Below are positions 12,504 through 43,571 of a DNA stretch of 64,000 nucleotides, in pieces. The stretch's first letter is position 1. Each line of letters starts with the position of its first letter. Made by a program: the position numbers and the translations under genes. The stretch comes from Trypanosoma brucei (Eukaryota), in assembly GCA_000002445.1 (NCBI GenBank), contig CM000208.1:1248001-1312000 (forward strand), in the 5' to 3' direction. Under the pieces are notes generated by a model. It had not been told where the DNA came from and searched no databases. It saw nothing but the letters and a program-made list of their open reading frames with translations.

Positions 12504-13832
12504 ATGTCATCAGAAATAGAGCCACATATCCTCCGGAAATATGAGATACAAGCACAGTTAGGGCAGGGGGCGTATGGCATCGTCTGGCGCGCAATTGACC
12601 GGCGGACGCGGCAGGTTGTAGCGTTAAAGAAGATATACGACGCTTTTCAAAACGCAACTGACGCGCAGCGAACCTTCCGTGAAATAATGTTTCTCCAGGC
12701 TCTTAGTCACCCAAACATAATTAAATTGCTTCATGTGCATCGCGCAACGAATGACAAGGATATTTACCTTGTATTCGAGTACATGGAGACGGATTTGCAC
12801 GTCGTAATTCGTGCCAACATCCTGGAGGATATCCATAAGCAATTCATAATTTATCAGCTTCTGAAGACAATGAAATACCTTCACTCGGCGGAACTGCTGC
12901 ATCGCGACATGAAACCGTCAAACCTGCTTGTAAACAGCGATTGCTCAATGAAAGTGGCAGATTTTGGGCTAGCACGCTCCATTCTATCGCTTGAAAAGGA
13001 GCAAGTGGCGCGTCCCGTACTCACTGATTACATCATGACACGTTGGTATCGGCCACCTGAGGTTCTTCTCGGCTCCACTCGCTACACGAAGGGTGTTGAC
13101 ATGTGGGCCATCGGATGCATTCTCGCCGAGTTACTTCTGGGACGACCCATATTCCCAGGCCGCACCACAATGAAACAGCTAGAACTAATTATCAATGTTC
13201 TAGGTGAACCCACAGCGGAGGAGATTCGGTCGACGAACTCCCAGTTTGCCGAAGCTATGCTGAAGGACACGCGTCGTACGCAAACCACGACGTTCGCGGA
13301 ACTGCTTCCCAAGGCCCCTCCTGATGCCCTGGACCTCGTACAGAAGCTCATGCGCTTTAACCCAAATGAACGACTAACCGCTGAGCAGGCGCTTGAACAC
13401 CCGTATGTGGCGGCTTTCCACAAACCCCAAGATGAGCCATCTGCTCCCGCACCCATAACTATTTCCCTCCCAGACGATACCCGCTTCACCATGCAAGAGT
13501 ATCGTGAGCGGCTATACCAAGAAATTGCTAATGCACGGCGCAAAGTCCGACGAGAGGTATTGGGCTCCGGCGCGCCTACTCGTGGAACGCATTCCTCATT
13601 GGCCACAGGAACGGCTTCTGGAACCTCAGAGGAAAAAAAGGAAAATGCACGTGTGTCGTCGGCGGCCACACGACCGGCGTCATCATCAGCTGCCCGTACC
13701 ACCGCCACCGCGGGCTCATCTTCGGGTGCCGGGTTGCACCGCACGACCGTTGCGTCACGATCAGCGCAGCACCACACGCGACCGGCAGTACACCGACAGC
13801 CCTCTGGAGCCTCTCGTGTGTTGCACAAATGA
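12504..13832 (+). CDS. ERK8: MAP kinase of the MAPK15/ERK7-ERK8 subfamily.
   Basis: Motifs: GQGAYGIVW (Gly loop), VALKKIYDAFQNATDAQRTFREIMFLQ (nearly identical to metazoan ERK8), HRDMKPSNLL, DFGLAR, activation-loop TDY (VLTDYIMTRWYRPPE). The C-terminus is a Ser/Thr/Ala-rich tail. PolyY-AG upstream at 12265-12316. Confidence 0.9.
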   Translation: MSSEIEPHILRKYEIQAQLGQGAYGIVWRAIDRRTRQVVALKKIYDAFQNATDAQRTFREIMFLQALSHPNIIKLLHVHRATNDKDIYLVFEYMETDLHVVIRANILEDIHKQFIIYQLLKTMKYLHSAELLHRDMKPSNLLVNSDCSMKVADFGLARSILSLEKEQVARPVLTDYIMTRWYRPPEVLLGSTRYTKGVDMWAIGCILAELLLGRPIFPGRTTMKQLELIINVLGEPTAEEIRSTNSQFAEAMLKDTRRTQTTTFAELLPKAPPDALDLVQKLMRFNPNERLTAEQALEHPYVAAFHKPQDEPSAPAPITISLPDDTRFTMQEYRERLYQEIANARRKVRREVLGSGAPTRGTHSSLATGTASGTSEEKKENARVSSAATRPASSSAARTTATAGSSSGAGLHRTTVASRSAQHHTRPAVHRQPSGASRVLHK

Positions 13833-18932: not shown

Positions 18933-21408
18933 TTTGGAAAACCTGGAGTGTCCCTCTTATTCCACTTCCTTGCGTTTGTGTTTGTTTTGTGGACTTTGTT
19001 GTCTTTTCCGTTTTTGTTTATCTGTCTTTTTTTGTTTTTTTTTTTTACCCATCGTCCCATCATTTCTTTTCGTTTTTTCCCCCTTCCTTTCAGCTCCCTT
19101 TGCCCACGTTCGATTTATTTTCATACCTTTCCCCTTCGTTTTTTGTTTTTTCCTGCTTTTTTTTTAAAAAATATTGTGCCACCTTTTTCCCCCTTTTTTG
19201 TTTGTTTTATTCCGTTGCCGTGAGATGACATTAGTCTTTTACTGTTTTTGTTTTTGTTGTTTCCTCCTTCTTTTTTGCTGATGGCATTACGACTGTGCGC
19301 GGGAGAGAGAAGAGAAAAAAAATGGTAAAGGAGAATGTGACTGATATGTGAGGGGTGTTGAGGTAATTTATTGTTTTTTTTTTAAATAACTATTCTCCTG
19401 TTTCGTCTTATCCCCCACCAAACTCTGCTAAAGTCCTAAAATAGCTGGCGGGTTTGAGATGTGAATAAATTTTGTTTCCTTTTCACCTCCCTTTCTGCAG
19501 CTTTTTTGTCTTTTCAAGTTCCTTTTTTTTTCTTGCTTTCTTTTCCTTTTTTTTCCCCCTTTTCTTGTGCAACTGTGGTGGATGTTTGTTTTATTTGCCT
19601 GTGCGATTTGTGCGCCACTGATTGGGATGGAAAAAAAAAAAAAGGAAAAGAAAGAAAGGCAAGAGGGCGGCGGTGGTGAAAAGGAACGGAATTTGGATGC
19701 GCGTGCTTGTGTGTGTGTGAGAGAGAAAGAAAGAAAGAAAAGAGAAAGGTCATAGTAATGGTGACATCAATAATAATAATAATAATAGTAACAATAAATA
19801 TTATAATCGTAATCATAATCATGGTAATAATGGCAACGACACTAACGGAAGGGGGAAGGGAAAGGGAAAGGGAAAGGGAAAGAGAGAGAGAGAAAAAAAA
19901 AGGCAATACTATACAATTTGGTATGATATTTAATATGTGGTGTTAAGGGAGGGTGTCTTTTTTTTTCTTTTTCTCTAAGTATGTGTGTTGGGAGAGAATA
20001 TCTGAGGCTCCAGTTTTATACATCAATTAGTTTGGAAGTGTGAAATAATCGGGATGGGTAATTTTTCTTTTTTTTCTTTTTTTTTCTTTTATTGCTTGAT
20101 GCAGGAGACGAAATGCGGTGTGTGTGTAGGGGGGGGGGTCATTTTTTTTTCCCCCTTCCGTTTTCTCTTCTCTTCTCTTTTTTTTTAAATCTTGAATGAG
20201 CCGTTGTGCCGCATGTTTTGTGTTTGGTTTCCTCATTTCCATTTGAAGGACTGGGGCCGCTTTTTGTTCATTTTTTTCATTTTTTCATTTTTTCATTTTT
20301 TCATTTTTTCATTTTTTTTATTTTTCTTTTTTTTTTTTTTCATTTTTTCATTTTTTCCTTTTTTTTTTATTTTTCTCATTTTCTGGTCTTCATTTGAGGT
20401 ATGTGCGCCTCCCTTTTTTTTTTGTTTTTTTTTTTTGAACATGAGAGTTAACTGACGGATTGAAGACAAAAGACGCCAAACATTACAAGAGGGGAAGGGA
20501 AATGAATACGAGGGAGAAAGCGAAAAAGATTAAAAAAAAAAAAAGTCATTATCATCAGCAGTTGCGATGGAAAAAAAAAGGAGTGAAAAGGAAAAAAAAA
20601 AGACGAAAGCAAAAGAAGAAACCAAAAAAATAAATAAATAAATAGATAAAATGAGTAAATAAATATAAATATAAATGTGCGCGTGTATGTCAAGGGCAGA
20701 GAAAGGTGAATGCACAAAAGCTGATGTGCGCACCATGTTCTGTGATGGGGACGGAGGCTTAGATTGTATAAGTGCAAATGTATGTATGTTTTTCTTTTTT
20801 TCTCTTTTTTTCTTTTTTTACCTGGCCATGTTTCTTTGTTTTCATTTTTGGGACAATAAGCAAAAAAGTATACATATATTTATATGTGTGAAAGGTACAC
20901 AAGCAAAGAAAGAAAGAAAGAAAAATAAAAAGAAAAAAAAATATATATATATGTACACGTGTGTCTTTGTGTGTGATCCGTTGTCGAGGGGTTGTGGCCG
21001 CCTCTTGGAGCGGTTGCTTTTTTTTTTTTCTCTCTTCTTCTTTGAATTAACAAAATTTTCCGTACTTATATATTTAGAGCCCTCGTCTCGCTCAGTTTAT
21101 ATATGCCCAATTAGTGTGTCCATTGGGGGATATATTTGCTTGTGAGTTACTTAATTATACTTTTGTTTTTTGCAAAAAAAAAAACAACAATAACGGCAAC
21201 AGCTAACAAACGAAAAAGGAGATGAATGAACTGATAGGGGAGGAGCAGAAGGGAGCATCTTTTAGTTCTTTATGCCGTCAAACCCCAAATTTTATTTGTG
21301 TATTTTTTCTTTTTTCCATTTTGTTGTTTCTTTTTCTGAGATTTTTTAAAAATTAAAAATGATCGTGATAGGCGGAGGAAGGGTAAAACATAAATACATT
21401 TACATGCA

Positions 21409-21440
<32 letters not shown>

Positions 21441-24400
21441 TATATGCATATAATTGTATACATATGTGCCCACCTCCCCTTCCCTCCCCTCCCCCCAAAA
21501 TAAAAATAAAAATAAAATAAAATCATCCCTATCACACTTTTTTTTCTTTTTCTTTTTCTCACTTTCCTTTCTTTACGGGCTCCTCTATTCGGCATGCTTT
21601 CCTCTTATTTTCACCAATTAAGGGGAAGATGGAGGGGAGTGGTGGGGCTTGTTTTATTATTATTATTATTTTGGCAATTTGCTTTCATTCAATTTCATTT
21701 TATTTGCAGTTTCTTCTTTTTTCCCCCTTGTGTGTGTGTGTGTGTCTTATCGTTATTATTATCATTATTATTATTATTATAAATATTCCGGTTCTTTTCC
21801 TATTTATTCCGGCGCGTTACATATATATATATGTTTTGTGTCCTTTTACATTGATGTTCATGTTTTTTATTTTCCTTTTCTTTTCTTTTTTGCCACTGTG
21901 ATGATGACCGATGGCGCCAGTAATTATTATTATTATTATTATTTTTACCACTAGCGCTACCACCATAATTATTTTTGATATTATTCTTGATGTGTTTCAC
22001 GAAGGAGGAGAAATAAAACGAAAAATTTGTTTTTTTTTCTTTTAAGAGAGGTAAAAGGTAAGCGAATATAATTATATAATAGGAAGTGTACATCACAAAT
22101 GAAGGTTTAGAGTTGAGGAGTGCGTGTGGTGACGGCAAAAAAGAAAAAAAAGAAATAAATGCAAAATCCAAAATGTCACATAAAGTAAGGTAAAGAGATA
22201 AGGTAAGAAGTGAAATGGAAAAAAAAAAGAAGAAAAGAAACCAATGGACCGTGGGCTACACGCAAAGCGACAGTGGAGTTGCAGTGCAGGGAAACGGAGT
22301 GGGAATGAGAAATGTGTCTACTTTATTTTTATTTTTATTTTTCGTCTTTTCTCAATTTAAAAGACAAAAAAGAAAAGAAATATTTTTATTTTGTTCTTTT
22401 TATTATCTTACCTTACCTCACTTTTTCTTTTTGTTTCCTCTTTATCCTTAATGACAGTTTATCGTATCCTTTACGTTTCCCGCTCCAGAGCCAAATCCTT
22501 AAATCCCTTTTCCTTTATATGTTTATTTATATATTTATTGTTTTTTTTATATGTTTTCTCCCCTTTGCTTCAACACTTAGAAGGTATGATGTGCGAGGAT
22601 GTTGGTGTGGTGTAAAACGAAATCAAAAAAAATATAATAATAATAAATGAAAAAAATGAAGAAAAAATAAAAGATGAAAAACTGGTGGAGTTGTACAATA
22701 GAAATAAATAAAAAAAAATATATATATATATAAGCGGGTTATAGTTGTCTTCATACGTTGTCTTGTATATCCGCTCTTTATACGTTTACTATTTTTATTT
22801 TCATTTTTTTCTTTCGTTTTCAATGAATGAGCACATTTATATATATATATATATATATATAGATATATATTTCTATTTATATACACACAAACAGTCATGC
22901 AGTTATACACTTATGTCTTATATACTCTCTTTCACACACCATAAATTATATACACATGTCACATTTTTTTTCATTTTTTTTTTTGAACTGGAGATCTCTC
23001 TTATTGATTTCATTATATACTTCTCATTTTTTTTCTTTTTAGTGGTGTTATGCTGATGTTTGTGCTTGTGTATTTGTATTATTGTGCCCGTGATTTTCTT
23101 TATTATTAACATTATTAATAGTAATAATATTAATATTATAATATTATTATTATTTGATTTTATTCGGATTTATACTCTCCTCCTTTTTCTTTCTTTTCTC
23201 TTTTGTTATATGAAAAAAAAAATAACAAGAAAAAAGTTGTTTTTCGTCAACTGCTTGAAGCAACCACCACAACAACGGCAAATGTTTTATTGTTGTTGAA
23301 GTCGGAAATATTTTTCCGTAACCCTATCGTATATGATGTTGTAGAGATTTAGGTGCCAACTTTTTTTTTTTAAATTTAATTATTTATTTAATTAATTGTT
23401 TATTCTCCTCCTACTTTCACTTTTCTTTAATTTTGTTGTGATGCAAATTTTGGAAAGTAGATTTCTGTTGGGACAGAAAGAAGAAAAGTGATAGAAAGAC
23501 ACGAGAAAATAAAAATAAAAGAAAATAAAAAGAGACTTCAAAAAGGCAAGAAAAAAAAAGAGAAAAAAAGAAAGAGAAAAAGAAGAAAAGTAGAGAGAAA
23601 CAAGAAACATGAAAGATATGTTGAATGGTACCGTTTGTTTTTTTTTTTTGCCGCGGTGGCATTTCAAATATATCTTTTTTTTTCAATTTTTCAAAACTTT
23701 AATAGAGAGAAGCAAAAAATGAAAGAAAATCAAAAGAAATGAAAGAAAATAAAAGAGAACAAAAACGGAAGGGAATTGGACAAGTTGTTACGAAGTTGCG
23801 CTGAAAAAAAAAACCCATAGGAGAACATTTGCGGGGTGATTCTTTTTGTTTTTTTCTAGAGAGAAAATGTTTTTTTTTCTGGTATGATCGTAATAGTAAT
23901 AATATTGACAATAATAATAATAATTGTTTTTTTTGTTATTGTGTATTTACTTTTGAGTTTATTACTGCTGCAATTAAAAAAAAAAAAACACCACCAACAA
24001 CAACAACAACAACACACACACACAGGAAGGGAGAGGAGGGATGAGAAGAAAAAGGGAGAAAGAAAAGAAAAGAAACCGTTATGAGGTAAGACCTCGGATT
24101 TACCAAGCGTTTTTTTTTCTTGTTTGCTTGCTTGCTTGCTTAATCAATTAATCAAATTTTTATTTTGCTTTGTTTTATTCCACGCGTTTGCTACGATTTT
24201 TTTCTTTTTTTTCTTTTATTGTCATCATTTGTCATGATGATTCTTACTATTAATATTCTGTTGAACCCACATCCTTCCTCTATTCCATTATCTTATATTC
24301 CTCTCTCTTATGTTATGTTATGTTTCTTTTTTTTTTTTACTTTGCTCAACTTTAATTCGCAAACAAAAAAAGAATGAGGGGGGGGGAAAAAAAAAAATAC

Positions 24401-26339
24401 TCCCCTACTGGTCGTTATTTCTCTCATCTCGGTCGCACAACGCTAATGGTTTAGAGGCCGATTTGAATGAATGAATGAGGTGAAATCATTTTGCTTTTTT
24501 TTTCTTTTCGTTTTCGATTTCGATTTTGTTTTTTTTATTCATTTAAATTTATATACCCACGTGCGTTTACGCACGATTATACTGACGAGGATTTGTTGTC
24601 GTGTTATATAACCCTTCTTTTTTTTTTCGTGTGTGTGTTACCTCTAGTATTATTATTATTATTCCTGTCATTCCCATTATTATTATTATTGTTGTTATTA
24701 TTATTATTATTTCAAAATTCATGGGATGTGAGACAGTCGGTAGCACTAAATTTCAATATTTGCTTACTTTTATTTTATGTTTATGTTTAACTTTTTGTTT
24801 TTTTAAAAATTTGATAGGGATGTGGTTAAGTTGGTGGTGTGGGGCATCGATTAAATGAAATATGTTGTTGCTTTGTAGATGCTCTGCTCCTTCTACCTTT
24901 CACCTTCCCTTTTCTTTTCTTTTTTCTTTTTTCTTTTTACTATTATTATTATTATTTGGTTGGTTTCACTGTGCGTGTTATTACTTTAAGGTTTTTTTTT
25001 CCTTTTGTCACTGTAATTAAATTCTTGTTAAACAGTTGGGCTACTTAATATTCTTTTCTTTTTTTTTTCTCTCCAACCAAAAAAAGAAAAAAAAACGTTA
25101 TAAATGGCTACAGAAATGGAAGAAGAGGTGTTAGTTGTGCTTTTGTTTTGTAATGTAAGCAACTCCCCCTCCCCCACCTTTCAAAAAAGAAAAAAAAGAA
25201 AAGAAAAAAATATATACAAAAGGGACCGCGTGTTTGTGTTTTTGTGTCTCTTTTTTTTTCTTTTTTTTCTTTTTTGAAAGGTGGGGGAGGGGGAAGGGGG
25301 CGGGGCGGGGAAGGGAAGGGAAATTGAAAATTAAGATGAGGCAAAAGAAGACACTTTTTTTTTTAAAAAATTTCTCGTGTTTAACTTTATAGTTTCTGTT
25401 TGTCATTTGCATGCAGTTGCACATTAATAAATGTATAAATACACACCAATATGCATACGAATGTGAATATCATCTTCATTTCTCTTTTTTCCTTTTCTTT
25501 TCTCTATCTATCTTTTGTTTTTTTTATTTCAAAAAAAAAAAAAAACTACCTTCATTAGTTTGCGTAGAGGACGTGTGTGGCTTACTACCGTCTTCATCGC
25601 CGTACAGGTCAGGCGCACAACGGAAAGAAATTTGAGGTTCGTTACTTTTTTGCTCTTTTTTTTTTTAAAAAAAAAAAGATATTGGTTATATTTGGATAGG
25701 GCGAATATCACAAACTATTTTCGTTTTTGGTTTGCTTTGCTTGAGAAGAACGCACACATTTATTTATATAAATACATATAAATAAATAAAAAAAGGAACG
25801 AAAGAAAGAGTGAAGGAGTAGTGGGAAGGACAGGAGTAAGAAGACGATATATATATATACACGCACACAAAAAACAAAAGCAAAAGCAAAAGAAAAAAAA
25901 GAAAGAAAAAAAAGAAAGAAAGAAACAAGGAAGGGAAATTAGACACTCTCTTCCCCCCAAGGGGTACCCGCTTCATAGATATTATAAAGGAGCGAGAAAC
26001 CAAAGGTTGGAAGTGAAAGAAAGAGGAGGAGGAGTAAAAGGGGAGGGGGAAAAAAAAGAAAGAAAGCGAAGAATACAATCAAACAAACAAAACAAGGCTG
26101 GGAGAAAGTGAAAAATAGCCCGTAATCGTACGACTTACAATATTTGTTCCAGAGGCTCGCACATCTCCACTCCTCGTCCGCTTTGTTGAGTGACAAGGGA
26201 AGGTTAACAAAAACATACCGCTTCAAAAGGAGGGGAGGGAAGGGAAAAGAAAAGGCGACAATATTTAATTTTCCTTCAGAAGGGAGGACACCGTGTCCGG
26301 TAGCGCAGGCCTCTTTTTTTTTTTTTCTCCAAATTTTGT
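18933..26339. other. ORF-free low-complexity tract of about 7.4 kb. It is presumably long UTR or intergenic sequence of the polycistron and is packed with microsatellites.
   Basis: No non-repetitive ORF on either strand. Alternating poly-pyrimidine and poly-purine blocks. Embedded repeats include (TTTTTCA)n at 20266-20360, (GGAAAG)n at 19857-19885, (TA)n at 21409-21440 and 22838-22870, and (TATTAT)n. Confidence 0.7.
26311..26335 (+). promoter_or_regulatory. Poly-T tract upstream of the 1098-aa gene: candidate splice-acceptor polypyrimidine signal.
   Basis: ctctttttttttttttctcc directly upstream of the first ATG at 26355. Confidence 0.4.
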
Positions 26340-29300
26340 TTGTACGAAGTGACGATGCCTACGGCCGATTCAACCTCTTCTGTTTTCCTGAAGACCCCAG
26401 CGGGAAGGAAATACATTCTTGAGCCGCCCATTACTATTGGACAGTTGCTTGACGTAGCGGCAAACCAGCTTCTTCTTGAAGTCAGCAATGCAAAATTCTT
26501 TTTAAATGGCTCTCTACTGTACGCTGCAGGAAAAGATGATACGGGCGCAAATGCAAATGTACTTCAAGAGGAGATCATCATTCCTGGTGGGAGATCCATT
26601 ATTGTTGTGGCAAAACCACTCCAATGTGTGGCAAAGTGGGCCGCTGCAGAGGCAATGCGTAAAAAGGTTGACATAAAAAATAGCAGAGAACCACCTGACC
26701 AATCATCCCCGAAACGGTCGTGTGCTTCACCCCTTTCACCTTCTGAAAATGCTTCCCCACAAAGTGGCGGTGCAGACGAGCTCGCCAACGGTCCAAGTTT
26801 ATATGAATTTATGAAGCAGTTTATATTTCTTCAGGGACGCCGCGGGCTCCGACAAATGCTTTACATTGCCAGAAATCAGTACGGTGACTTCCCACGAAGC
26901 CTCCAAGATCACCAAACTATGGTGTCGATTGTAGAATATGTAGATCGAGATCCAACGCGACTGAGGGATGTTCTTCGTACCATCCTTGAGGAGGAGCCGG
27001 ATCTTTTTAGGTGGATTGAGGCAAATTCTGAGGTGTTTCTCGCGATAATTAACGGCCCTGTGCACCGACAGGAAGCGGCTTCTCCCGTATGGCTCATACG
27101 CAACATGACGGAGGCGTACCACAGACAAAATTCGAAGTGTGGTTTACCCCGTCGATTTGGCCAGCCAGAGAACCCCCAGCCGTTTCATGGCAGTGAGAGT
27201 CCTCAACAGAATGGTGAGGTCCCTGCATTGCGTTTGGTTGCTGCAACGCGGCCCCGCAACTTAGAGACGACCCACAACGCGGCGGCAAAATCGTCTTGCC
27301 AATCAGATATCCTCGTGGACGCTAAATATCGGAACGCTGCGGCGGAAAACACACTTGGTGCAGATGAGGAGGGTCGGCAACTCGTTGACGAAAGCATTGA
27401 GGCGGTTCAAACAACTTGCAATGCCTGGGAAGTTGCAAAGGATCGCTGGATGGTACCTGCTGAAGGTAACACAAATGTACAAGTAGTAAACCACCTGATG
27501 TGCTCTCGTCTTCGAGAGGCACAGGAGTCTCTACTGCAGAGCATGGAAGGTTACATGGTGTCACAACCGCCGTTATCTATGCTACAGAAAGTCTGTGAGC
27601 TTGGACAACAGTTGTGGCAGGACGGTGAACAATGGCTCATCAAACAAAACGATGTATTGGGTGCCTTTCAACACGCGTTGGCCTGTTTACTGTTTGAAAC
27701 AGGGAGGGATTTGCTTACAGACTTTATTGACGCGAATAGCAAAAGTCCCCGTGGTTCACTGCGAAAGAAGATTCCAGCACGGGAAGGTGTTGAATACCAC
27801 CCCTTGCTGGATCCGTCTGTTAGCTGGATCACACCCAATGGACCGGAGTCTCTTGCCAACAAGTTACGGGACTATACTGTGCGTGAGGAGGTAACCGTTG
27901 TGGTTTACACTAAGCTGTCGCCGAACCATGCCAACGCCTACGTTATCCACACGGGGCGGGTTTATGTTGAACCGCTGATAGTCGACGATACGGCAAGGTA
28001 CGAGCTGGAGGATTTGGAAGTGTTATATTCTCTCATCTCATCAAGGGAATTTTTATTGCAGGACCCAGGAATGCGGAAGGTAACAGAAAGCAACTGGAAC
28101 GACCTTATGGTCAAGTTGTACAAAAGATTCATAAGCCCTATTGGGATGCTTCTTCCGCAACCTGCCCATGATGTTAGTTCTCCCTTGTGTGAGGTGAAGC
28201 AGGTTTGCTTTATTCACACGTGGTCCTCCAGGCACATTCCGATCCCATTTCACGCGTTACTCAACCCAGTGGACTCAAAACCATGTGTCTTACGGTGGGC
28301 ACCATTCGTTGCAGAGCGGCCTTGGCACCTTTTGGTAAGCGAGGGGATACCATGGTCCACTCCAGTTCCGCAGTCTCCCGTGATAACACGGCTTACCGCC
28401 CCTATTGCCTTTAGGCGGGAACCTCGGGAACCGGACAGTTGCTTAGTTTCGAAAACAAATATGGTAACGTACGTGAATGTTAACGGTACGCATTGCTCAT
28501 CATTTGGGGAAAAGGAGTTGAATCAACCCTTGGGGGTGCTAAACAATGGACCAGTAGCGGATGAAGGGGGCATGTGGCAGGATGTACCATGGAAAACGTG
28601 GCTGACTGACGCGTTAGGGGACGTTCGCGCCGGTATTCCGACTCATGCTTCTATGTTTGGCCGTGATGAGCGTCACTTTAAAAATACCGCACTTCTCATT
28701 CATGAGGTGACGCGCGGCTCCGGAGATGACGCCAATTGTGAAGCCAACGGAGCGGATGGATCGGCGGAGGTAATCCGCGCAAAAACTCACTCAGTGATGA
28801 TGGACAGACGAGTGCCGTATAATCAGGGTTCTGATCTGTTTGTTTCTCACGTCTGTGGTCGTGAGAGTGGTGTGGGCATTCACCGCTGTGCACTTTTGCC
28901 CGCCTTTAAAGTAAGTGAATATGAGCCGATAGAGGTGTACAATGCATTCTTCAGGCTTCTTGTTGAGACTGAAAACGCAACCACTGCACAGGCGTATCGC
29001 ATGGCGTTGTTAGAATCATGGAGCTCTAATTTCAAGGAGGAGCCCTGGCGCTACACATCAGTAATGCTTTTTAACTACGGAGGTCCCATGAAAACGCTCG
29101 AGCACCTCTGTGGGGAGGGATCCGAGCCGCTCTCTGTAGTCAGTGAGGAGACAATAATAAATAATGTATCGGAACAAGCTGAGGTGCCTAGAACTCATAC
29201 AGTTGGGAAGAGAACGAAGCGACTTTCTGCTCACCGTGACACAACGAATGGACGCTATGTGGAGGGCCGCGCCATCGACGTTATTTACGATGTCGTATTG

Positions 29301-29636
29301 CATGGCCTTTCCACCAGTCGTCCGGAGGGAATGGTTGCTATCCTAGATTGTATGATTGGTTGCATTGAGAAAAACCGTATAAGCCTCGAAAAATCTATAA
29401 AGAGACGACAGAAAAAACAGGACAAGGCATCGAAACAACTCAGTCTCTATTTGTGCTCCCGTTCATCACCAACTGGGGGCCACTCCGCCCGTGGCTCGCC
29501 TGGAACTGCGTCCGCCAGAGGAAAGGCTCATGCATCAAGAGGGAATTGCAACAAAGCTAATGATGAGATCCAAGAGGGAGTTATCTCACCACCTTCGGGA
29601 CGAGGAGGGAAACGATCTCCATTCAAGCGGCGCTGA
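26340..29636 (+). CDS. Large hypothetical protein (about 1093 aa from ATG 26355). It has an N-terminal ubiquitin-like fold and a Rad23-type XPC-binding / STI1-like helical segment. The remaining ~800 residues have no recognised domain.
   Basis: Track start is TTG; first ATG is at 26355. UBL-like segment VFLKTPAGRKYILEPPITIGQLLD...GGRSIIVVAK. Rad23 XPC-binding-like segment FLQGRRGLRQMLYIARNQ...EEEPDLFRWIEANSEVFLAIINGP. PolyT-AG immediately upstream (26311-26335). Confidence 0.75.
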   Translation: MYEVTMPTADSTSSVFLKTPAGRKYILEPPITIGQLLDVAANQLLLEVSNAKFFLNGSLLYAAGKDDTGANANVLQEEIIIPGGRSIIVVAKPLQCVAKWAAAEAMRKKVDIKNSREPPDQSSPKRSCASPLSPSENASPQSGGADELANGPSLYEFMKQFIFLQGRRGLRQMLYIARNQYGDFPRSLQDHQTMVSIVEYVDRDPTRLRDVLRTILEEEPDLFRWIEANSEVFLAIINGPVHRQEAASPVWLIRNMTEAYHRQNSKCGLPRRFGQPENPQPFHGSESPQQNGEVPALRLVAATRPRNLETTHNAAAKSSCQSDILVDAKYRNAAAENTLGADEEGRQLVDESIEAVQTTCNAWEVAKDRWMVPAEGNTNVQVVNHLMCSRLREAQESLLQSMEGYMVSQPPLSMLQKVCELGQQLWQDGEQWLIKQNDVLGAFQHALACLLFETGRDLLTDFIDANSKSPRGSLRKKIPAREGVEYHPLLDPSVSWITPNGPESLANKLRDYTVREEVTVVVYTKLSPNHANAYVIHTGRVYVEPLIVDDTARYELEDLEVLYSLISSREFLLQDPGMRKVTESNWNDLMVKLYKRFISPIGMLLPQPAHDVSSPLCEVKQVCFIHTWSSRHIPIPFHALLNPVDSKPCVLRWAPFVAERPWHLLVSEGIPWSTPVPQSPVITRLTAPIAFRREPREPDSCLVSKTNMVTYVNVNGTHCSSFGEKELNQPLGVLNNGPVADEGGMWQDVPWKTWLTDALGDVRAGIPTHASMFGRDERHFKNTALLIHEVTRGSGDDANCEANGADGSAEVIRAKTHSVMMDRRVPYNQGSDLFVSHVCGRESGVGIHRCALLPAFKVSEYEPIEVYNAFFRLLVETENATTAQAYRMALLESWSSNFKEEPWRYTSVMLFNYGGPMKTLEHLCGEGSEPLSVVSEETIINNVSEQAEVPRTHTVGKRTKRLSAHRDTTNGRYVEGRAIDVIYDVVLHGLSTSRPEGMVAILDCMIGCIEKNRISLEKSIKRRQKKQDKASKQLSLYLCSRSSPTGGHSARGSPGTASARGKAHASRGNCNKANDEIQEGVISPPSGRGGKRSPFKRR

Positions 29637-30511: not shown

Positions 30512-33454
30512 TTGCCCCTCCCTTATTGGAGAATGAGTGTAAGGCACCTGTTTGGAGCCTTGCAATGGGTTACGACAGGGTCAGTTGCTGGACGCCCTCG
30601 GGATATAGAGGAGCGCGTTGAGCTGAACGGCCTCTCAGTTGGACCAAAGGACTGTGGGCGTGTTGTGGGTGTCGTCAATCCGCATCAAATAACAGAGGAA
30701 CCGTGCGATAGTTTAGAGGGTCGAAGTGAGGGCGAACACGACCACCAAATATTGATGGACAGCACGCGTGAAAACTGCGTAAATGGGAATGATAACGTGC
30801 CGGTGCATTGTGGAGAGAAGCAATCAACGTATAAGCGTGGTGGGGGTTTCAACAATGAACAAGTGTTGCTTCAGTGGAAGCTGCGCCAGTTCGATCAGCT
30901 GAGCGCTAAAATCGAGGCAAACATGGCCCGGTATCGTCAATCAGGTGACCGACGGCGCTTGAACGAGATGGAAAAAGAACTCCAGGTTATACGAATTCTT
31001 AGGGGTAGTGCGGTGCGCTGCCTAAAAGATGTAGATAATGCAAACAGCCAAACAAGCGAAAGTGGCGCGCAAAGTCCGGGAGGCGTGTCGCCGTCACCAG
31101 TGCTAAGTGCTAGTCCCTCCGAAAGTGCTTCCCATCCAGCTGATAGTGTCTCCGATAATTGTGTATTTGACACGCGTGCGCCAGTTGAGAATGGGCTGTT
31201 CCAAACTCCATTGGCGGCTCCGTCAGGCTTGCCAAGTGGCGCGACTGCCACGGACGCTGTTTTAAATGAGGCAACACCAGTTCCCTCAACGGGCGTTTCC
31301 GCTCCACCAGTGCCCCTGGCGCCACAATCCCGAGAATCGTGTAAGGCCGACTCCGACGATGCCGTTCATGCACAAGATGCGCTGCAGCAACCAAAGTCGT
31401 ATGATACCCGGTGCCCTCGTCGCCCCGAGCACCCGGCCGCAACCGCTGTGAATAATTCCATTAGGAAGCAAGGGATCCATCCCGCGGGGTCACATTCTGC
31501 AACTCCTGTAAACCGTTTTAGCAGTGCAGGTGGTAATTCCGAGGGTTGCGGGCCCACAACGAGGGAGGGGTCACCAACAGTTCAGTCTTTCATGCATCCG
31601 CGCGGAAGTGTGGGTCAGGCACCGACAGCAGCAGCAGTGCAAAATAAAAAGCCTAAAGAATGGCATGGAGATTATTTTGAGCCGTGTGACATAGGCGGGG
31701 GTGAGTCTACTTTACGTGATAAAGCGAGACGCGCTTCAGCAATAGCCACACCGACTAGTGAAGTTATTGATTCAGCAGCGTACCGCGGCTCCAGTGGAAC
31801 ACAATCTTCAGTTTCAGCGGTTGTTCACGAAATGTTTAATCGGTTAAAAAACCGTGGTTCACACTTACATGGGAAAGTTGCACCACCAGCAGCTCCTATA
31901 GTTCCTCGAAGCGAGGCAGCAGCAGAGGTGTCGGACGGCTTGTCCTCTGCAGCCCAAGCTGTATCGGTTCTTCGAAAACGTGGCAATGACCTTGTGAAGA
32001 AGGGACAATACAAGGAGGCCATACAAGTATACACAGACGCTATTAGATGCGACCCGGAAAACAATGTTCTCCTATGCAATCGAGCTGTTGCCTACTTACT
32101 CAACAACCAGTACAGGCTCTCTCTGATGGATTGTGAGAATGTGCTTTACAACTCACCAACCAATCTTAAGGCTCACTGGCGCGCCGCGAAAGCACTTCTG
32201 TATATGTATAGGACGAAAGAGGCACGGTATCACTACCGAAAGGCCAGTGAGCTTTCTACCAACGCGGCTGATGAGCGGCTAATAGCCGATGAACTGGAAC
32301 TTCTTCATTCGGTGGAGATGTACCACAGCTGCAGTAAGGAAAAACACTGGTCAAAGTGTTTGTGGCACGCTAAACAACTTCTTCAAACTTTTAGCCACAT
32401 CAGCCCAATAAATATTCCGTGGCATTGCCTGAAACTTGAGGCCCTTTTGCATTTAGACTGCTGGAAAGCATTGGAGGGTGTCAAGCAACTGAAGAAGAGC
32501 CATCCGACGTGCGCCGAGCTGTTCTTTCTCCATGCGAAGAGCCTGTTTTACTGCGCACACAATCAGCGCAGTGTGGCGGAGGCTCTAGAGCTGGTTCGGC
32601 ACGCAGTTGAGCTGAAAAAGGCTGACGGAGAAGTAGAGGATAGCCGTTATATCGCCTTAGAGCGCAACCTCACGTTATTTGAGAGATGTCGTGATCGCGG
32701 TAATGCGGCATATAAGAGCGGAAACTGGTCAGAAGCATACGATGCGTATACTTCCTGCATTTCGATAGATCCACAGAATACTTCACTTGTTGCAATGGCA
32801 TATTGCAACCGCGCAGCAACATGTATGCAGTGTGGCCGCTGGGCTGAGGCGCTGGAGGATGTCAATAACTCTATTAGCATCAACGGCACGGCACCTAAGG
32901 CATATACCCGGAGGGCTCACATAAACATCCATTTATTTAGCGAAAAAGGTGGAACAGATATACGCCTTCTTAAACAAGCTGTTAGCGACCTCCGCACGGT
33001 AGTAAAACTTGAGCCAAGCAAAGCAAACAAGCAGCATCTGGATGAGGTCGTTAGAATGACACAAGAAAAAGAAAAACAGATACAGCGCGCACACAATGAT
33101 AATTGCAACCGCTATGGGTCTGGCAGCGAGCGCCATGACTGGCGTGGTAAAGGACATCAAAAACATTCTAGCTCTCCTGGTGCCCAGCATAAAGCTGAGG
33201 GCCAAGACAATCGACGACCATCGGTTGCGACCGCATCACACTCTAGAGCTCAACTTGTGCGGTTGTTGGGGTTGGAGACCACCGCCAATTTGGATGAACA
33301 GGCACTTGTGAGGGCATATCACAAGGCTGCACTTCAGTGGCATCCTGACAGGTGGGTTGGGGCACCCAAACATGAACAACAGGTAGCGGAGCAAAAGTTT
33401 AAGGAAATCAATGTTGCGTATCAAGCGTTGAAGCAGGTGATCGGCAATCGTTGA
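30512..33454 (+). CDS. TPR-repeat co-chaperone with a C-terminal DnaJ (J) domain (DNAJC7/TPR2-like architecture). A roughly 480-aa low-complexity extension precedes the TPRs.
   Basis: TPR motifs (e.g. AIQVYTDAIRCDPENNVLLCNRAVAYL; GNAAYKSGNWSEAYDAYTSCISIDPQN...AYCNRAATCMQCGRWAEALEDV). J domain at about nt 33230-33430 with an HPD motif (YHKAALQWHPDRW...KFKEINVAYQAL). Track start is TTG; first ATG is at 30533. Confidence 0.85.
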   Translation: MPLPYWRMSVRHLFGALQWVTTGSVAGRPRDIEERVELNGLSVGPKDCGRVVGVVNPHQITEEPCDSLEGRSEGEHDHQILMDSTRENCVNGNDNVPVHCGEKQSTYKRGGGFNNEQVLLQWKLRQFDQLSAKIEANMARYRQSGDRRRLNEMEKELQVIRILRGSAVRCLKDVDNANSQTSESGAQSPGGVSPSPVLSASPSESASHPADSVSDNCVFDTRAPVENGLFQTPLAAPSGLPSGATATDAVLNEATPVPSTGVSAPPVPLAPQSRESCKADSDDAVHAQDALQQPKSYDTRCPRRPEHPAATAVNNSIRKQGIHPAGSHSATPVNRFSSAGGNSEGCGPTTREGSPTVQSFMHPRGSVGQAPTAAAVQNKKPKEWHGDYFEPCDIGGGESTLRDKARRASAIATPTSEVIDSAAYRGSSGTQSSVSAVVHEMFNRLKNRGSHLHGKVAPPAAPIVPRSEAAAEVSDGLSSAAQAVSVLRKRGNDLVKKGQYKEAIQVYTDAIRCDPENNVLLCNRAVAYLLNNQYRLSLMDCENVLYNSPTNLKAHWRAAKALLYMYRTKEARYHYRKASELSTNAADERLIADELELLHSVEMYHSCSKEKHWSKCLWHAKQLLQTFSHISPINIPWHCLKLEALLHLDCWKALEGVKQLKKSHPTCAELFFLHAKSLFYCAHNQRSVAEALELVRHAVELKKADGEVEDSRYIALERNLTLFERCRDRGNAAYKSGNWSEAYDAYTSCISIDPQNTSLVAMAYCNRAATCMQCGRWAEALEDVNNSISINGTAPKAYTRRAHINIHLFSEKGGTDIRLLKQAVSDLRTVVKLEPSKANKQHLDEVVRMTQEKEKQIQRAHNDNCNRYGSGSERHDWRGKGHQKHSSSPGAQHKAEGQDNRRPSVATASHSRAQLVRLLGLETTANLDEQALVRAYHKAALQWHPDRWVGAPKHEQQVAEQKFKEINVAYQALKQVIGNR

Positions 33455-42068: not shown

Positions 42069-43571
42069 ATGAACCCGTCCTATTTGAATCAGATATTGAG
42101 TTACCCCCAACGCGAATCGCTAATTTCGGAGTGCCCCGCGCTTGCACTCCTCTGCTATCAGGAATTAGTGGCTGCCTTCCGCAAAGGGAAACGCATTGCT
42201 GATCCGCTGTCTTTGAGGGATGATGTCACAGTCCTACTTTCCATTGGATCGTTGCATGAACTGACGGACCGGATTTTCTCAGCTGCACCGCATGAATCCG
42301 CTTTGCCTCCTCTCTGGTGTACGCTTCGGAAGGCTCTTGAGTGTGCCTGGGACCCCAGAGGTGATGGTGAGCGACAATGTGAACTAACGATGGTGGGTGG
42401 GAAACTCCGATTTTACAAGAAAAAATGTGATAGGATGCCGCTTGCACAGTCATCAATGCGGAACGCACTTAATATGAGTAGAACACGCATTCGAGAAGTT
42501 ATTGCCTGTGCCCTATCGGGTTCACTGGAGCCCCTTGGAGGGAGACGTAACGAGCCTATCGCTGCATTACTTCAGTTTTCCCGCCTGATCCCACCACCGT
42601 CGGAAGAGCGGGTCGTCACCTCTGAAGGATTGGCATTTTGCATGCAGCCCCTTCAACAACAGTGGTGGACATTAGTATCTGTTGTGTTAGATCGCGCACT
42701 GGCCATAATGTCGGGTAAAGGAGTCTCACGCGCCACTCTTTGGCAGCTTCTAGCTGTTCTGTTTGCACTTAACACAAGTGATTATGTTTACTTGTTTCCT
42801 TCAAAGGATGATGACCTTGAGGCCTTTCAACTGCTGGCGCGCCTCTCGGAGGTCGGGTTGGTTTACCCCCTTATTTGTAACGGAGAGAAATGCTTTGTGC
42901 TTTCTCCCCACTTCCACCACGCCATATGTTGGAGTTCTACACCATCGCTTTGCACAGCGGCATTGCTGGACGACACGAGGGGTCCATCGTCTCGTCTACG
43001 GCGGGAGGATGAAGATACTATCATCACTGAAACAAATTTTCGACTATACGCATACACGAAAAATCCTGACATGCTGCGCATTCTTGATCAATTTGCGGTA
43101 AAGGAAGTGGATGTGGTGGGAATGGTTGTATGCTACAGGGTGACACGAGCATCATTTGCAAGTGCACTAGCGAAAGGCATAGGCGCAAACCATATATTGC
43201 AATTTCTTACGGTGAAGGCACATCCTTCTATGATCAAGCAGAGCAATAGTGAGGCTGGTGACCCGTCGTGCCCGGTTCTCCCCGCTGCTTCTGTGGGATT
43301 CGGTAATACATCTGAATATCGTCAGGGAAATATTATACCACAATCCTTTTGTGATCAACTGTTCACGTGGGAGAGGGAATGCCGAAGACTAATTTTTCGT
43401 CACGATGTGGTGCTGTTGAAAAATATCGGGAAAGAGCAGATGGAAATAATCTTAAACTGTCTTTCAAATAGTGGGGAACAGCACGCCGTGGTGCATCGCG
43501 AGAGCGGTACTTTGGCCATTGAACAGGAGGTTTACACGCGTGTACTGTCCAATTTCATTACTCCGGATTAA
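42069..43571 (+). CDS. Possible TFIIH subunit p52 (Tfb2/GTF2H4-like); otherwise a hypothetical protein.
   Basis: 500 aa. The N-terminus YLNQILSYPQRESLISECPALALLCYQEL resembles the Tfb2 N-terminus ([27 protein letters not shown]). Size matches p52. The functional call is tentative. Confidence 0.45.
   Translation: MNPSYLNQILSYPQRESLISECPALALLCYQELVAAFRKGKRIADPLSLRDDVTVLLSIGSLHELTDRIFSAAPHESALPPLWCTLRKALECAWDPRGDGERQCELTMVGGKLRFYKKKCDRMPLAQSSMRNALNMSRTRIREVIACALSGSLEPLGGRRNEPIAALLQFSRLIPPPSEERVVTSEGLAFCMQPLQQQWWTLVSVVLDRALAIMSGKGVSRATLWQLLAVLFALNTSDYVYLFPSKDDDLEAFQLLARLSEVGLVYPLICNGEKCFVLSPHFHHAICWSSTPSLCTAALLDDTRGPSSRLRREDEDTIITETNFRLYAYTKNPDMLRILDQFAVKEVDVVGMVVCYRVTRASFASALAKGIGANHILQFLTVKAHPSMIKQSNSEAGDPSCPVLPAASVGFGNTSEYRQGNIIPQSFCDQLFTWERECRRLIFRHDVVLLKNIGKEQMEIILNCLSNSGEQHAVVHRESGTLAIEQEVYTRVLSNFITPD

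What the first reader, a model, noticed from the sequence alone, without database searches (positions are those of the whole stretch)
26355..29636. UBL plus Rad23-type XPC-binding-like module at the N-terminus of a 1093-aa orphan protein
Residues about 10-90 resemble a ubiquitin fold. Residues about 150-240 resemble the Rad23 XPC-binding / STI1 helical domain (FL..R..LRQML...NP....L.....P.L...IE.N.E.FL.IINGP). The remaining ~800 aa have no recognisable domain. This could be a lineage-specific proteasome shuttle or adaptor.
Basis: inference. Interest (0 to 1): 0.5.

Follow-up and report, generated by a model that had tools for sequence, protein, structure and literature searches.

The report
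Trypanosome ubiquitin-like adaptor with dead protease

Summary
The ORF 26355-29636 (+) is 100% identical to T. brucei TREU927 XP_822762.1 / UniProt Q38B86, listed as a conserved hypothetical or 'XPC-binding domain-containing' protein. I found no paper on it.

- Residues 9-88 are a ubiquitin-like beta-grasp. The family profile hits almost only ubiquitin and UBLs in the PDB. The AlphaFold model (pLDDT 75-87) has its top 50 Foldseek hits in ubiquitin/UBL structures. There is no C-terminal Gly-Gly.
- Residues 182-235 match Pfam XPC-binding (E 8.6e-12, 45 bits against a cut-off of 26.4). All 11 aligned orthologs match it too.

- The protein is not an orphan. Orthologs exist across kinetoplastids (T. 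vivax, T. grayi, T. conorhini, Phytomonas and unnamed assemblies).

The CHAT catalytic His is missing in all 14 sequences examined, and the Cys is kept in only three. A short C-terminal helical hairpin weakly resembles RIIa/Dpy-30 dimerisation modules. No UBA domain is present, so this is not a canonical Rad23-type shuttle. The most likely role is a UBL-tethered scaffold or adaptor; that function is inferred, not shown.

The parts
26355..29636 (+). Complete intronless CDS, 1093 aa plus stop; T. brucei TREU927 chr10 protein XP_822762.1 / Q38B86
   Evidence: ORF list. 1093/1093 identity to P0004 = XP_822762.1.
26311..26349 (+). Polypyrimidine tract (26311-26330) followed by an AG (26348-26349) just upstream of the ATG; a plausible trans-splice acceptor region
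   Evidence: Read directly from the sequence. Its role as a splice signal is inferred from general trypanosome gene structure and was not tested.
26379..26618 (+). Ubiquitin-like (beta-grasp) domain, residues 9-88. It ends ...IIVVAKP with no Gly-Gly. Ubiquitin L8/I44/V70 correspond to P15/F49/V84.
   Evidence: Profile against PDB; hhalign and MAFFT alignment with ubiquitin; AF2 pLDDT 75-87 with bb-a-bb-(a)-b topology; Foldseek top 50 all ubiquitin/UBL.
26817..27062 (+). Helical module, residues 155-236. It comprises a family-specific helix with invariant G164-L165, then the Rad23-type XPC-binding/STI1-like core (Pfam match 182-235 = nt 26898-27059).
   Evidence: Pfam PF09280 E 8.6e-12; 11/11 orthologs; hHR23B 2.4e-8; local match to TIGR00601 rad23 positions 249-311; AF2 helices 161-232, pLDDT 66-89.
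27387..27749 (+). Bundle of four long helices, residues 345-465, preceding the CHAT domain, in the position where TPR or helical domains sit in TPR-CHAT proteins and separase
27840..29090 (+). Degenerate CHAT (caspase/separase-like) domain, residues ~496-912, with the catalytic dyad not conserved
28341..28679 (+). Trypanosoma-specific insertion inside the CHAT domain (residues ~663-775), absent from the shorter distant orthologs and modelled with low confidence
   Evidence: Alignments A1 and A4; AF2 pLDDT below 50 across 663-858.
28854..28856 (+). Codon of Cys834, which aligns with the catalytic Cys of CHAT ('VLSAC'). The partner His-Gly is missing; V785 or R787 sits there, depending on register.
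   Evidence: hhalign and merged MAFFT alignments with Nostoc and Tolypothrix CHAT proteins.
29247..29390 (+). Conserved C-terminal helical hairpin, residues 965-1012 (RY.E...ID.iYd.mL..L...RP.Ge.AvLD.lI), a candidate RIIa/Dpy-30-like dimerisation/docking module
   Evidence: Invariant Y968, P990 and A995. AF2 helices 964-1006, pLDDT 71-88. Weak hits only: PKA RI-alpha D/D domain E 0.74 and 9eie E 0.04. No Pfam RIIa or Dpy-30 hit.
29442..29633 (+). Disordered, basic, Ser/Gly/Arg-rich tail, residues 1030-1093, ending GGKRSPFKRR
   Evidence: AF2 pLDDT below 50; composition. Basic C-terminal ends are seen in several orthologs.

Best explanation
The gene encodes a kinetoplastid-restricted, non-enzymatic scaffold with five modules in this order:
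1. A built-in, non-conjugatable ubiquitin-like domain.
2. A Rad23-type XPC-binding (STI1-like) helical bundle.
3. A four-helix bundle.
4. A CHAT/separase-like caspase-fold domain that has lost its His-Cys catalytic dyad.
5. A short conserved helical hairpin that may dimerise the protein.
Long disordered linkers separate the modules.

Most likely mechanism (inferred, not shown): the UBL docks the protein on a UBL receptor, such as the proteasomal Rpn1/Rpn10/Rpn13 sites used by Rad23, Dsk2 and Ddi1. The XPC-binding bundle grips a helical or hydrophobic segment of a partner, as Rad23 does with XPC/Rad4 and PNGase. The dead CHAT module, with its helical bundle, acts as a peptide- or protein-binding platform in place of the UBA domains of classical shuttles.

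What is shown: the domain identities, their order, their conservation, and the loss of catalytic residues. What is inferred: every binding partner and the link to the proteasome.
For: - Identity and conservation.
- UBL.
- XPC-binding domain above Pfam's cut-off, and present in all orthologs.
- Pseudoenzyme: the CHAT 'THG' His-Gly is absent in 14/14 sequences. The 'SAC' Cys is present in only 3/14. The residues conserved at >= 9/11 across 480-960 are hydrophobic or structural, plus D827 and R882, with no His, Cys or Ser.
- No ubiquitin-binding or other catalytic Pfam domain in any ortholog.
- Background: UBL-plus-STI1 shuttles (PMC13083955), the CHAT/separase dyad (PMC9729208), and a separate canonical RAD23 and XPC in T. 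brucei (PMC4138998).
Against: - There is no experimental or interaction evidence of any kind. I found no publication on the gene.
- The UBL's ubiquitin L8 position is Pro in T. brucei, so the canonical receptor-binding patch is only partly kept.
- The second half of the CHAT domain is poorly modelled (pLDDT below 50 for 663-858), so the active-site geometry rests on sequence alignment alone.
- The register around the missing His is uncertain: hhalign and MAFFT differ.
- The T. brucei sequence on its own does not match CHAT significantly (P 0.16).
- The dimerisation hairpin is only a lead.
Confidence: 0.55

Rival explanations
1. It is an active CHAT cysteine protease carried by a UBL, analogous to Ddi1 (UBL plus a retropepsin protease), and cleaves substrates at or near the proteasome.
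For: T. brucei has Cys834 exactly at the position of the CHAT catalytic Cys. So do two distant orthologs, P0016 and Phytomonas P0019. The overall CHAT fold is retained.
Against: The catalytic His-Gly is absent in all 14 sequences. The Cys is Val in T. grayi, T. vivax, T. conorhini, P0006 and P0009, and Phe, Leu or Ala in six others. No His, Cys or Ser is conserved anywhere in the domain. A function conserved across the family therefore cannot depend on this dyad.
Confidence: 0.07
2. It is a second, dedicated partner of trypanosome XPC, or of another Rad4/PNGase-type transglutaminase-fold protein. On this view it acts in DNA-damage recognition or in the unexplained essential non-repair role of TbXPC, not in general proteasome delivery.
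For: The only domain with a specific known ligand is the Rad23-type XPC-binding domain. T. brucei XPC is essential for reasons unrelated to UV repair (PMC4138998). The basic C-terminal tail could serve as a nuclear targeting signal (inference).
Against: T. brucei already has a clearly conserved RAD23 (PMC4138998). STI1-type bundles bind many different helical or hydrophobic clients (PMC13083955). There is no localisation or interaction data. This reading is compatible with the best explanation and is not exclusive of it.
Confidence: 0.15
3. It is a structural protein anchored through its C-terminal RIIa/Dpy-30-like hairpin to an AKAP-like helix, for example in the flagellum, where most trypanosome proteins with such docking domains reside. 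On this view the UBL serves as a generic interaction domain.
For: The C-terminal hairpin is among the best-conserved parts of the family. It shows a pattern match to docking/dimerisation domains: hhalign P 3.9e-5, score 25.5 against shuffled 8.2 +/- 1.6. PKA RI-alpha D/D domain scores E 0.74.
Against: No Pfam RIIa or Dpy-30 hit in any of 11 members. The PDB hits are not significant. The alignment needs a 3-residue gap in the second helix.
Confidence: 0.1
4. The UBL and XPC-binding resemblances are chance or compositional, and the protein has no real relationship to the ubiquitin system.
For: Single-sequence evidence is weak. T. brucei alone against PDB Rad23 gives E about 0.5. Single-sequence AF2 gave pLDDT 39.
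Against: The Pfam score is well above the curated cut-off and is reproduced in all orthologs. Family profiles reach 2.4e-8 for Rad23B and hit almost exclusively ubiquitin-fold proteins. A confident beta-grasp model returns only UBL structural neighbours. Shuffled controls score far lower.
Confidence: 0.03

Closest known systems
Rad23 / hHR23A/B (UBL-UBA1-XPC-binding-UBA2 proteasome shuttle and XPC partner)
   Same: An N-terminal integral UBL is followed, after a disordered linker, by a helical domain that matches the Rad23 XPC-binding model above Pfam's cut-off. That domain aligns to hHR23B residues 7-64 of the isolated domain.
   Different: There are no UBA domains. The full-length Rad23 model scores 23.7 bits against a cut-off of 207.3. 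The protein is three times longer and carries a CHAT domain. T. brucei has a separate true RAD23 (PMC4138998).
Ddi1 (UBL - helical domain - retropepsin protease - UBA)
   Same: The concept of a UBL-tethered protease-fold module with a helical domain between the two.
   Different: The protease fold is different (caspase/CHAT versus aspartic retropepsin), and here the catalytic residues are lost. There is no sequence relationship.
Ubiquilin / Dsk2 (UBL - STI1 domains - UBA)
   Same: A UBL plus an STI1-class helical bundle separated by disordered linkers. In ubiquilins, STI1 bundles bind hydrophobic or helical client segments (PMC13083955, PMC11257586).
   Different: Pfam assigns the bundle here to the Rad23 XPC-binding family, not to STI1. 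There is no UBA.
Bacterial TPR-CHAT proteases (cyanobacterial CHAT proteins; Csx29 of type III-E CRISPR 'Craspase') and eukaryotic separase
   Different: The His-Cys dyad that defines these proteases (PMC9729208) is not conserved. There are large lineage-specific insertions. The fusion to a UBL and an XPC-binding domain was not seen in any of the compared proteins.
PKA regulatory subunit / Dpy-30 dimerisation-docking (RIIa) domains
   Same: A helix-turn-helix of about 45 residues with the pattern Y....I/L......L....RP......L.
   Different: The similarity is below significance in the curated libraries. This is a lead only.

Membership tests
Ubiquitin-like (UBL) beta-grasp domain, integral type | beta-beta-alpha-beta-beta-(alpha)-beta beta-grasp fold | tested here: met
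   AF2 with ortholog alignment: E10-13, E19-22, H28-37, E47-50, E53-57, H67-70, E81-85, pLDDT 75-87. Foldseek top 50 PDB hits are all ubiquitin or UBL, target-normalised TM-score around 0.6-0.68 for single-domain targets.
Ubiquitin-like (UBL) beta-grasp domain, integral type | Sequence-profile similarity to the ubiquitin family | tested here: met
   34 of 35 PDB hits of the N-terminal profile are ubiquitin or UBLs; the best single-domain E-values are 7.6e-4 and 2.3e-3. hhalign score 27.0 against shuffled 2.9 +/- 2.2. Support is modest but consistent.
Ubiquitin-like (UBL) beta-grasp domain, integral type | Hydrophobic L8/I44/V70 receptor-binding patch | tested here: inconclusive
   The aligned residues are P15, F49 and V84 in T. 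brucei. Orthologs have A/V/T/G/I at the L8 position and hydrophobic residues at the other two. Binding was not tested.
Conjugatable ubiquitin-like modifier | C-terminal Gly-Gly exposed for conjugation | tested here: not met
   The domain ends IIVVAKP and continues into the rest of the protein. It is therefore a built-in UBL, not a modifier.
Rad23 XPC-binding domain (Pfam PF09280) | Match to the family model above the curated cut-off | tested here: met
   45 bits against 26.4, E 8.6e-12, residues 182-235 covering model positions 3-56 of 57. All 11 orthologs match at E <= 0.1. Of the ten scored individually, six are above the cut-off.
Rad23 XPC-binding domain (Pfam PF09280) | Compact all-helical bundle | tested here: met
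   AF2 helices 179-185, 187-196, 200-213, 215-223 and 225-232, pLDDT 77-89.
Rad23 XPC-binding domain (Pfam PF09280) | Binds XPC/Rad4 or PNGase | not testable with these tools
   Needs interaction assays or complex prediction with TbXPC.
Rad23 protein family (TIGR00601 equivalog; UBL-UBA-XPCB-UBA) | Full-length match and two UBA domains | tested here: not met
   23.7 bits against a cut-off of 207.3, local to the XPC-binding segment only. No UBA hit at E <= 1 in the ten sequences scanned at that threshold, or at E <= 0.1 in all 11.
CHAT domain (Pfam PF12770; caspase-hemoglobinase fold) | Sequence homology to CHAT domains | tested here: met
   Not detectable from the T. brucei sequence alone (P 0.16). 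Ortholog P0017 scores 36.9 bits against a cut-off of 24, and one other ortholog also matches CHAT at E <= 0.1. All 15 listed tblastn rows with annotation are CHAT or TPR-repeat proteins. Family profile against cyanobacterial CHAT: Prob 99%, E 8e-17, 303 columns; score 97.9 against shuffled 13.5 +/- 1.9.
CHAT domain (Pfam PF12770; caspase-hemoglobinase fold) | Structural similarity to CHAT/separase | tested here: met
CHAT domain (Pfam PF12770; caspase-hemoglobinase fold) | Conserved His-Cys catalytic dyad | tested here: not met
   The 'THG' His-Gly is absent in 14/14 sequences. The 'SAC' Cys is present in 3/14 (T. brucei C834, P0016, Phytomonas). No conserved His, Cys or Ser in residues 480-960. 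The protein is homologous to CHAT but should be filed as a pseudoprotease.
RIIa / Dpy-30 dimerisation-docking domain | Match to the family models, or to solved D/D domains | tested here: inconclusive
   No Pfam hit in 11 members. PKA RI-alpha D/D domain E 0.74.

The most novel reading that the evidence does not exclude
Kinetoplastids have built their own substrate receptor for the ubiquitin-proteasome system. On this reading a catalytically dead caspase/separase-like CHAT domain works as a 'substrate trap' that recognises specific clients, or holds XPC- or separase-type partners. The fused UBL and Rad23-type bundle then deliver or tether those clients to the proteasome. This would be a pseudoprotease taking the place of UBA domains in a shuttle factor, an arrangement I did not see in any of the proteins or papers consulted here.
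Probability: 0.2. Interest if true: 0.65.

Novelty: new variant of a known kind. Interest (0 to 1): 0.45.

Why it matters
About half of trypanosome proteins have no assigned function. This one is conserved across the named kinetoplastid orthologs and has no detectable relative outside them.

Recognising the layout UBL + Rad23-type bundle + dead CHAT domain turns a 'conserved hypothetical' into a testable candidate adaptor of the degradation or XPC pathways.

T. brucei XPC is essential for an unknown, non-repair reason (PMC4138998). A second XPC-binding-domain protein is an obvious candidate partner.

It is also an example of a eukaryotic CHAT domain that has become a pseudoenzyme. That is relevant to how caspase/separase-like folds are reused.

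The practical lesson is that the CHAT domain is invisible from the T. brucei sequence alone and appears only through the family profile.

Tried and rejected
- **Word-index homolog searches.** Three searches (full protein, full alignment, CHAT-region alignment) returned only the T. brucei-group cluster and a T. conorhini fragment. The orthologs came from the exhaustive HMMER search instead.
- **Single-sequence AF2 of residues 1-290.** Uninformative, pLDDT 39.
- **PDB sequence searches for the CHAT region.** Nothing found with P0017 alone or with the A4 profile. Structure comparison and cyanobacterial plasmid proteins were needed.
- **ETV6/TEL-SAM hits of the C-terminal profile.** Rejected as artefacts of triple-repeat fusion constructs; single-copy E-values are 17-36.
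- **RIIa/Dpy-30 idea.** Not supported by Pfam or by single-sequence PDB search. Kept only as a lead.
- **Foldseek against AFDB.** Not available on the machine.
- **Literature.** Searches by accession, by product name and by guessed gene IDs (Tb927.10.5160-5190) found nothing. The exact TriTrypDB gene ID was not established. The published CHAT protein Tb927.9.15290 is a different gene, on chromosome 9.
- **NCBIfam.** Added only a local Rad23 match.
- **Rfam.** No RNA family in the window.
- **Gene neighbourhood.** I considered and rejected any functional meaning of the neighbouring TFIIH p52 and TPR-DnaJ genes. All long ORFs lie on one strand, as in a trypanosome polycistron, where adjacency is not evidence of shared function (established knowledge).
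Full report
**What the sequence is.**
The window has the layout of a trypanosome polycistron. Fifteen of the 16 ORFs of at least 200 aa lie on the + strand; the exception lies inside the kinase ORF on the opposite strand. GC-richer coding blocks are separated by AT-rich, low-complexity spacers. The ORF starting at ATG 26355 and ending at 29636 encodes 1093 aa. It is 100% identical to T. brucei brucei TREU927 XP_822762.1 / EAN77934.1 / UniProt Q38B86. NCBI calls it 'hypothetical protein, conserved'. UniProt, and the T. equiperdum record, call it 'XPC-binding domain-containing protein'. A polypyrimidine tract (26311-26330) and an AG (26348-26349) lie just upstream of the ATG. I found no paper that mentions the protein by accession or by product name. 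My guesses at its TriTrypDB number also found nothing.

XPC-binding domain:
- Pfam PF09280 matches residues 182-235 with E 8.6e-12, 45 bits against a curated cut-off of 26.4.
- On its own the T. brucei sequence barely sees human RAD23B in the PDB (E about 0.5).
- A profile of 11 orthologs reaches 2.4e-8, and every ortholog matches PF09280.
- NCBIfam's Rad23 model matches only locally, at model positions 249-311, with 23.7 bits against 207.3.
- The Rad23-like core therefore starts at about residue 180.

UBL:
- A profile of seven N-termini (A2) returns 35 PDB sequences at E <= 10. All but one are ubiquitin or UBLs. The best single-domain E-values are 7.6e-4 and 2.3e-3.
- hhalign against ubiquitin scores 27.0; column-shuffled controls give 2.9 +/- 2.2.
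- Single-sequence AF2 failed. With the ortholog alignment, residues 10-90 fold at pLDDT 75-87 into the ubiquitin strand-helix order.
- The 50 best Foldseek PDB hits are all ubiquitin or UBLs, including BAG6 and ubiquilin-3.
- Ubiquitin L8/I44/V70 align with P15/F49/V84. The domain ends IIVVAKP without Gly-Gly, so it is a built-in UBL, not a modifier.

**The protein is not an orphan.**
The word-index homolog search found only the T. brucei group. The exhaustive HMMER search found 16 cluster representatives:
- Full-length proteins from T. grayi, T. vivax and Phytomonas, plus a T. conorhini fragment.
- Several unnamed assemblies and one metagenomic scaffold with same-strand gene arrays.

Identity to T. 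brucei is 37-38% within Trypanosoma and 17-21% for the distant members. Nothing outside kinetoplastid-like sequences was detected.

**The 'featureless' 800 residues.**
The alignment shows three further conserved blocks. AF2 models them as follows:
- Four long helices, 345-465, pLDDT 84-93.
- An alpha/beta region, 481-660, pLDDT 72-93.
- A poorly modelled stretch, 663-858, which includes a Trypanosoma-specific insertion.
- Helices 858-906.
- A helical hairpin, 964-1006, pLDDT 71-88.

Evidence that 496-912 is a CHAT domain:
- Pfam CHAT (PF12770) is not detected in T. brucei. It is detected in two distant orthologs; P0017 scores E 3.5e-9, 36.9 bits against a cut-off of 24.
- tblastn of the P0017 region against plasmids matched 26 records. 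All 15 listed rows that carry annotation are cyanobacterial CHAT or TPR-repeat proteins. The best E-values are 9e-5, and 5e-4 for a match covering 74% of the query.
- I extracted three of those proteins. Their profile, compared with the kinetoplastid profile, gives hhalign Prob 99%, E 8.2e-17 over 303 columns.
- The local hhalign score is 97.9; column-shuffled controls give 13.5 +/- 1.9.
- The T. brucei sequence alone is not significant (P 0.16). This explains why the domain had gone unnoticed.
- Separase and TPR-CHAT are known structural relatives that share a His-Cys dyad (PMC9729208).

**The CHAT domain is catalytically degenerate.**
In the merged alignment the cyanobacterial motifs 'IIHLATHG' and 'VLSACDTG' are obvious. 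Across 14 kinetoplastid sequences:

| Catalytic position | Kinetoplastid sequences |
|---|---|
| His-Gly of 'THG' | Absent in all 14 |
| Cys of 'SAC' | Cys in 3: T. brucei C834, P0016, Phytomonas |
| Cys of 'SAC' | Val in 5: T. grayi, T. vivax, T. conorhini, P0006, P0009 |
| Cys of 'SAC' | Phe, Leu or Ala in the other 6 |

Residues conserved in at least 9 of 11 sequences between 480 and 960 are hydrophobic or structural, plus D827 and R882. None is His, Cys or Ser. The typical non-catalytic CHAT motifs are kept: the LLP...PF.AL strand-loop, the helix ...A.A.R.A.L and the terminal PW...F...G. The domain is therefore homologous to CHAT but should be regarded as a pseudoprotease. One caveat: the register around the missing His differs between hhalign and MAFFT, though neither supplies a His.

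**The C-terminal hairpin.**
Residues 965-1012 (RY.E...ID.iYd.mL..L...RP.Ge.AvLD.lI) contain three of the 15 invariant positions of the whole family. By eye they resemble RIIa/Dpy-30 dimerisation-docking domains. The tests give only weak support:
- PKA RI-alpha D/D domain E 0.74, and a solved 'trypanosomatid-specific protein of unknown function' (9eie) E 0.04.
- No Pfam hit in any member.
- Nothing with the single sequence.

I keep this as a lead only. The stronger-looking ETV6 hits are artefacts of triple-repeat fusion constructs.

**How it most likely works.**
Shown:
- The domain order UBL - linker - XPC-binding bundle - linker - helical bundle - dead CHAT - hairpin - basic tail.
- Conservation of that order across kinetoplastids.
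- No UBA, UIM or catalytic domain.

Inferred, from established knowledge of Rad23, Dsk2/ubiquilin and Ddi1 (PMC13083955, PMC11257586):
- The UBL tethers the protein to a UBL receptor, most plausibly on the proteasome.
- The Rad23-type bundle holds a helical or hydrophobic segment of a partner.
- The CHAT pseudoprotease with its helical bundle provides the client-recognition surface that UBA domains provide in classical shuttles.

T. brucei has its own RAD23 and an XPC that is essential for non-repair reasons (PMC4138998). An XPC-related role is therefore a serious, compatible alternative. An active-protease reading is unlikely, because the dyad is not conserved. None of these functions could be tested here.

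**Comparison and novelty.**
The protein is not a Rad23 family member: the full-length model and the UBA requirement both fail. It is not an active CHAT protease or separase: the dyad test fails. It does contain true homologs of the UBL, XPC-binding and CHAT domains.

I did not see the combination UBL + XPC-binding + CHAT in any compared protein or paper. The databases annotate only the XPC-binding domain. I therefore rate it a new variant of a known kind, namely UBL-domain adaptors. Interest is moderate: it gives a clear, testable hypothesis for a conserved parasite protein, but domain shuffling of this sort is not in itself very surprising, and there is no functional evidence.

Noticed in passing
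window 30512-33454 (+): The next gene downstream encodes a protein of about 980 aa with several TPR repeats (about 480-790) and a C-terminal DnaJ/J-domain (918-974), i.e. a TPR-J co-chaperone. Adjacency in a trypanosome polycistron is not evidence of shared function.
   Followed up: partly
window 42069-43571 (+): A TFIIH subunit Tfb2/p52 homolog (Pfam Tfb2, E 4.3e-29) lies 12 kb downstream of the XPC-binding-domain gene. This is probably a coincidental neighbourhood of two genes with links to nucleotide excision repair.
   Followed up: no
window 12504-13832 (+): A 442-aa protein kinase (Pfam Pkinase, E 6.6e-68). From its position it may be TbERK8 (Tb927.10.5140; PMC5053586). The identity was not verified.
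   Followed up: no
window 48357-53465 (+): A 1702-aa protein with two cyclic-nucleotide-binding domains and a C2 domain, an unusual combination. It was not examined further.
   Followed up: no
window 18933-26354: A 7.4-kb stretch without any credible ORF. GC is 27-32%, and it is full of poly-T, poly-A, AT and purine-rich low-complexity repeats. No Rfam family was found in the whole window. It is probably long UTRs or intergenic spacer.
   Followed up: partly
PDB 9eie chain A residues 31-74 (not in the window): A solved 'trypanosomatid-specific protein of unknown function' carries a motif (AAYVEKHNLQCLFSEMAEQLSEKDP...) that resembles the conserved C-terminal hairpin of this family (E 0.04 and 0.069). 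It could be a shared small helical module.
   Followed up: partly
L001 1-589 and 722-3367 (Nostoc sp. HK-01 plasmid2): The cyanobacterial TPR-CHAT gene used as a reference sits directly downstream of a gene annotated as 'peptidase C14 caspase catalytic subunit p20'. Loci L002 and L003 each carry two CHAT genes in tandem.
   Followed up: no
tool behaviour: The word-index homolog search failed to return orthologs that are cluster representatives in the same collection, even when they were part of the query alignment. Low-complexity words may have saturated the candidate list; this explanation is a guess.
   Followed up: no
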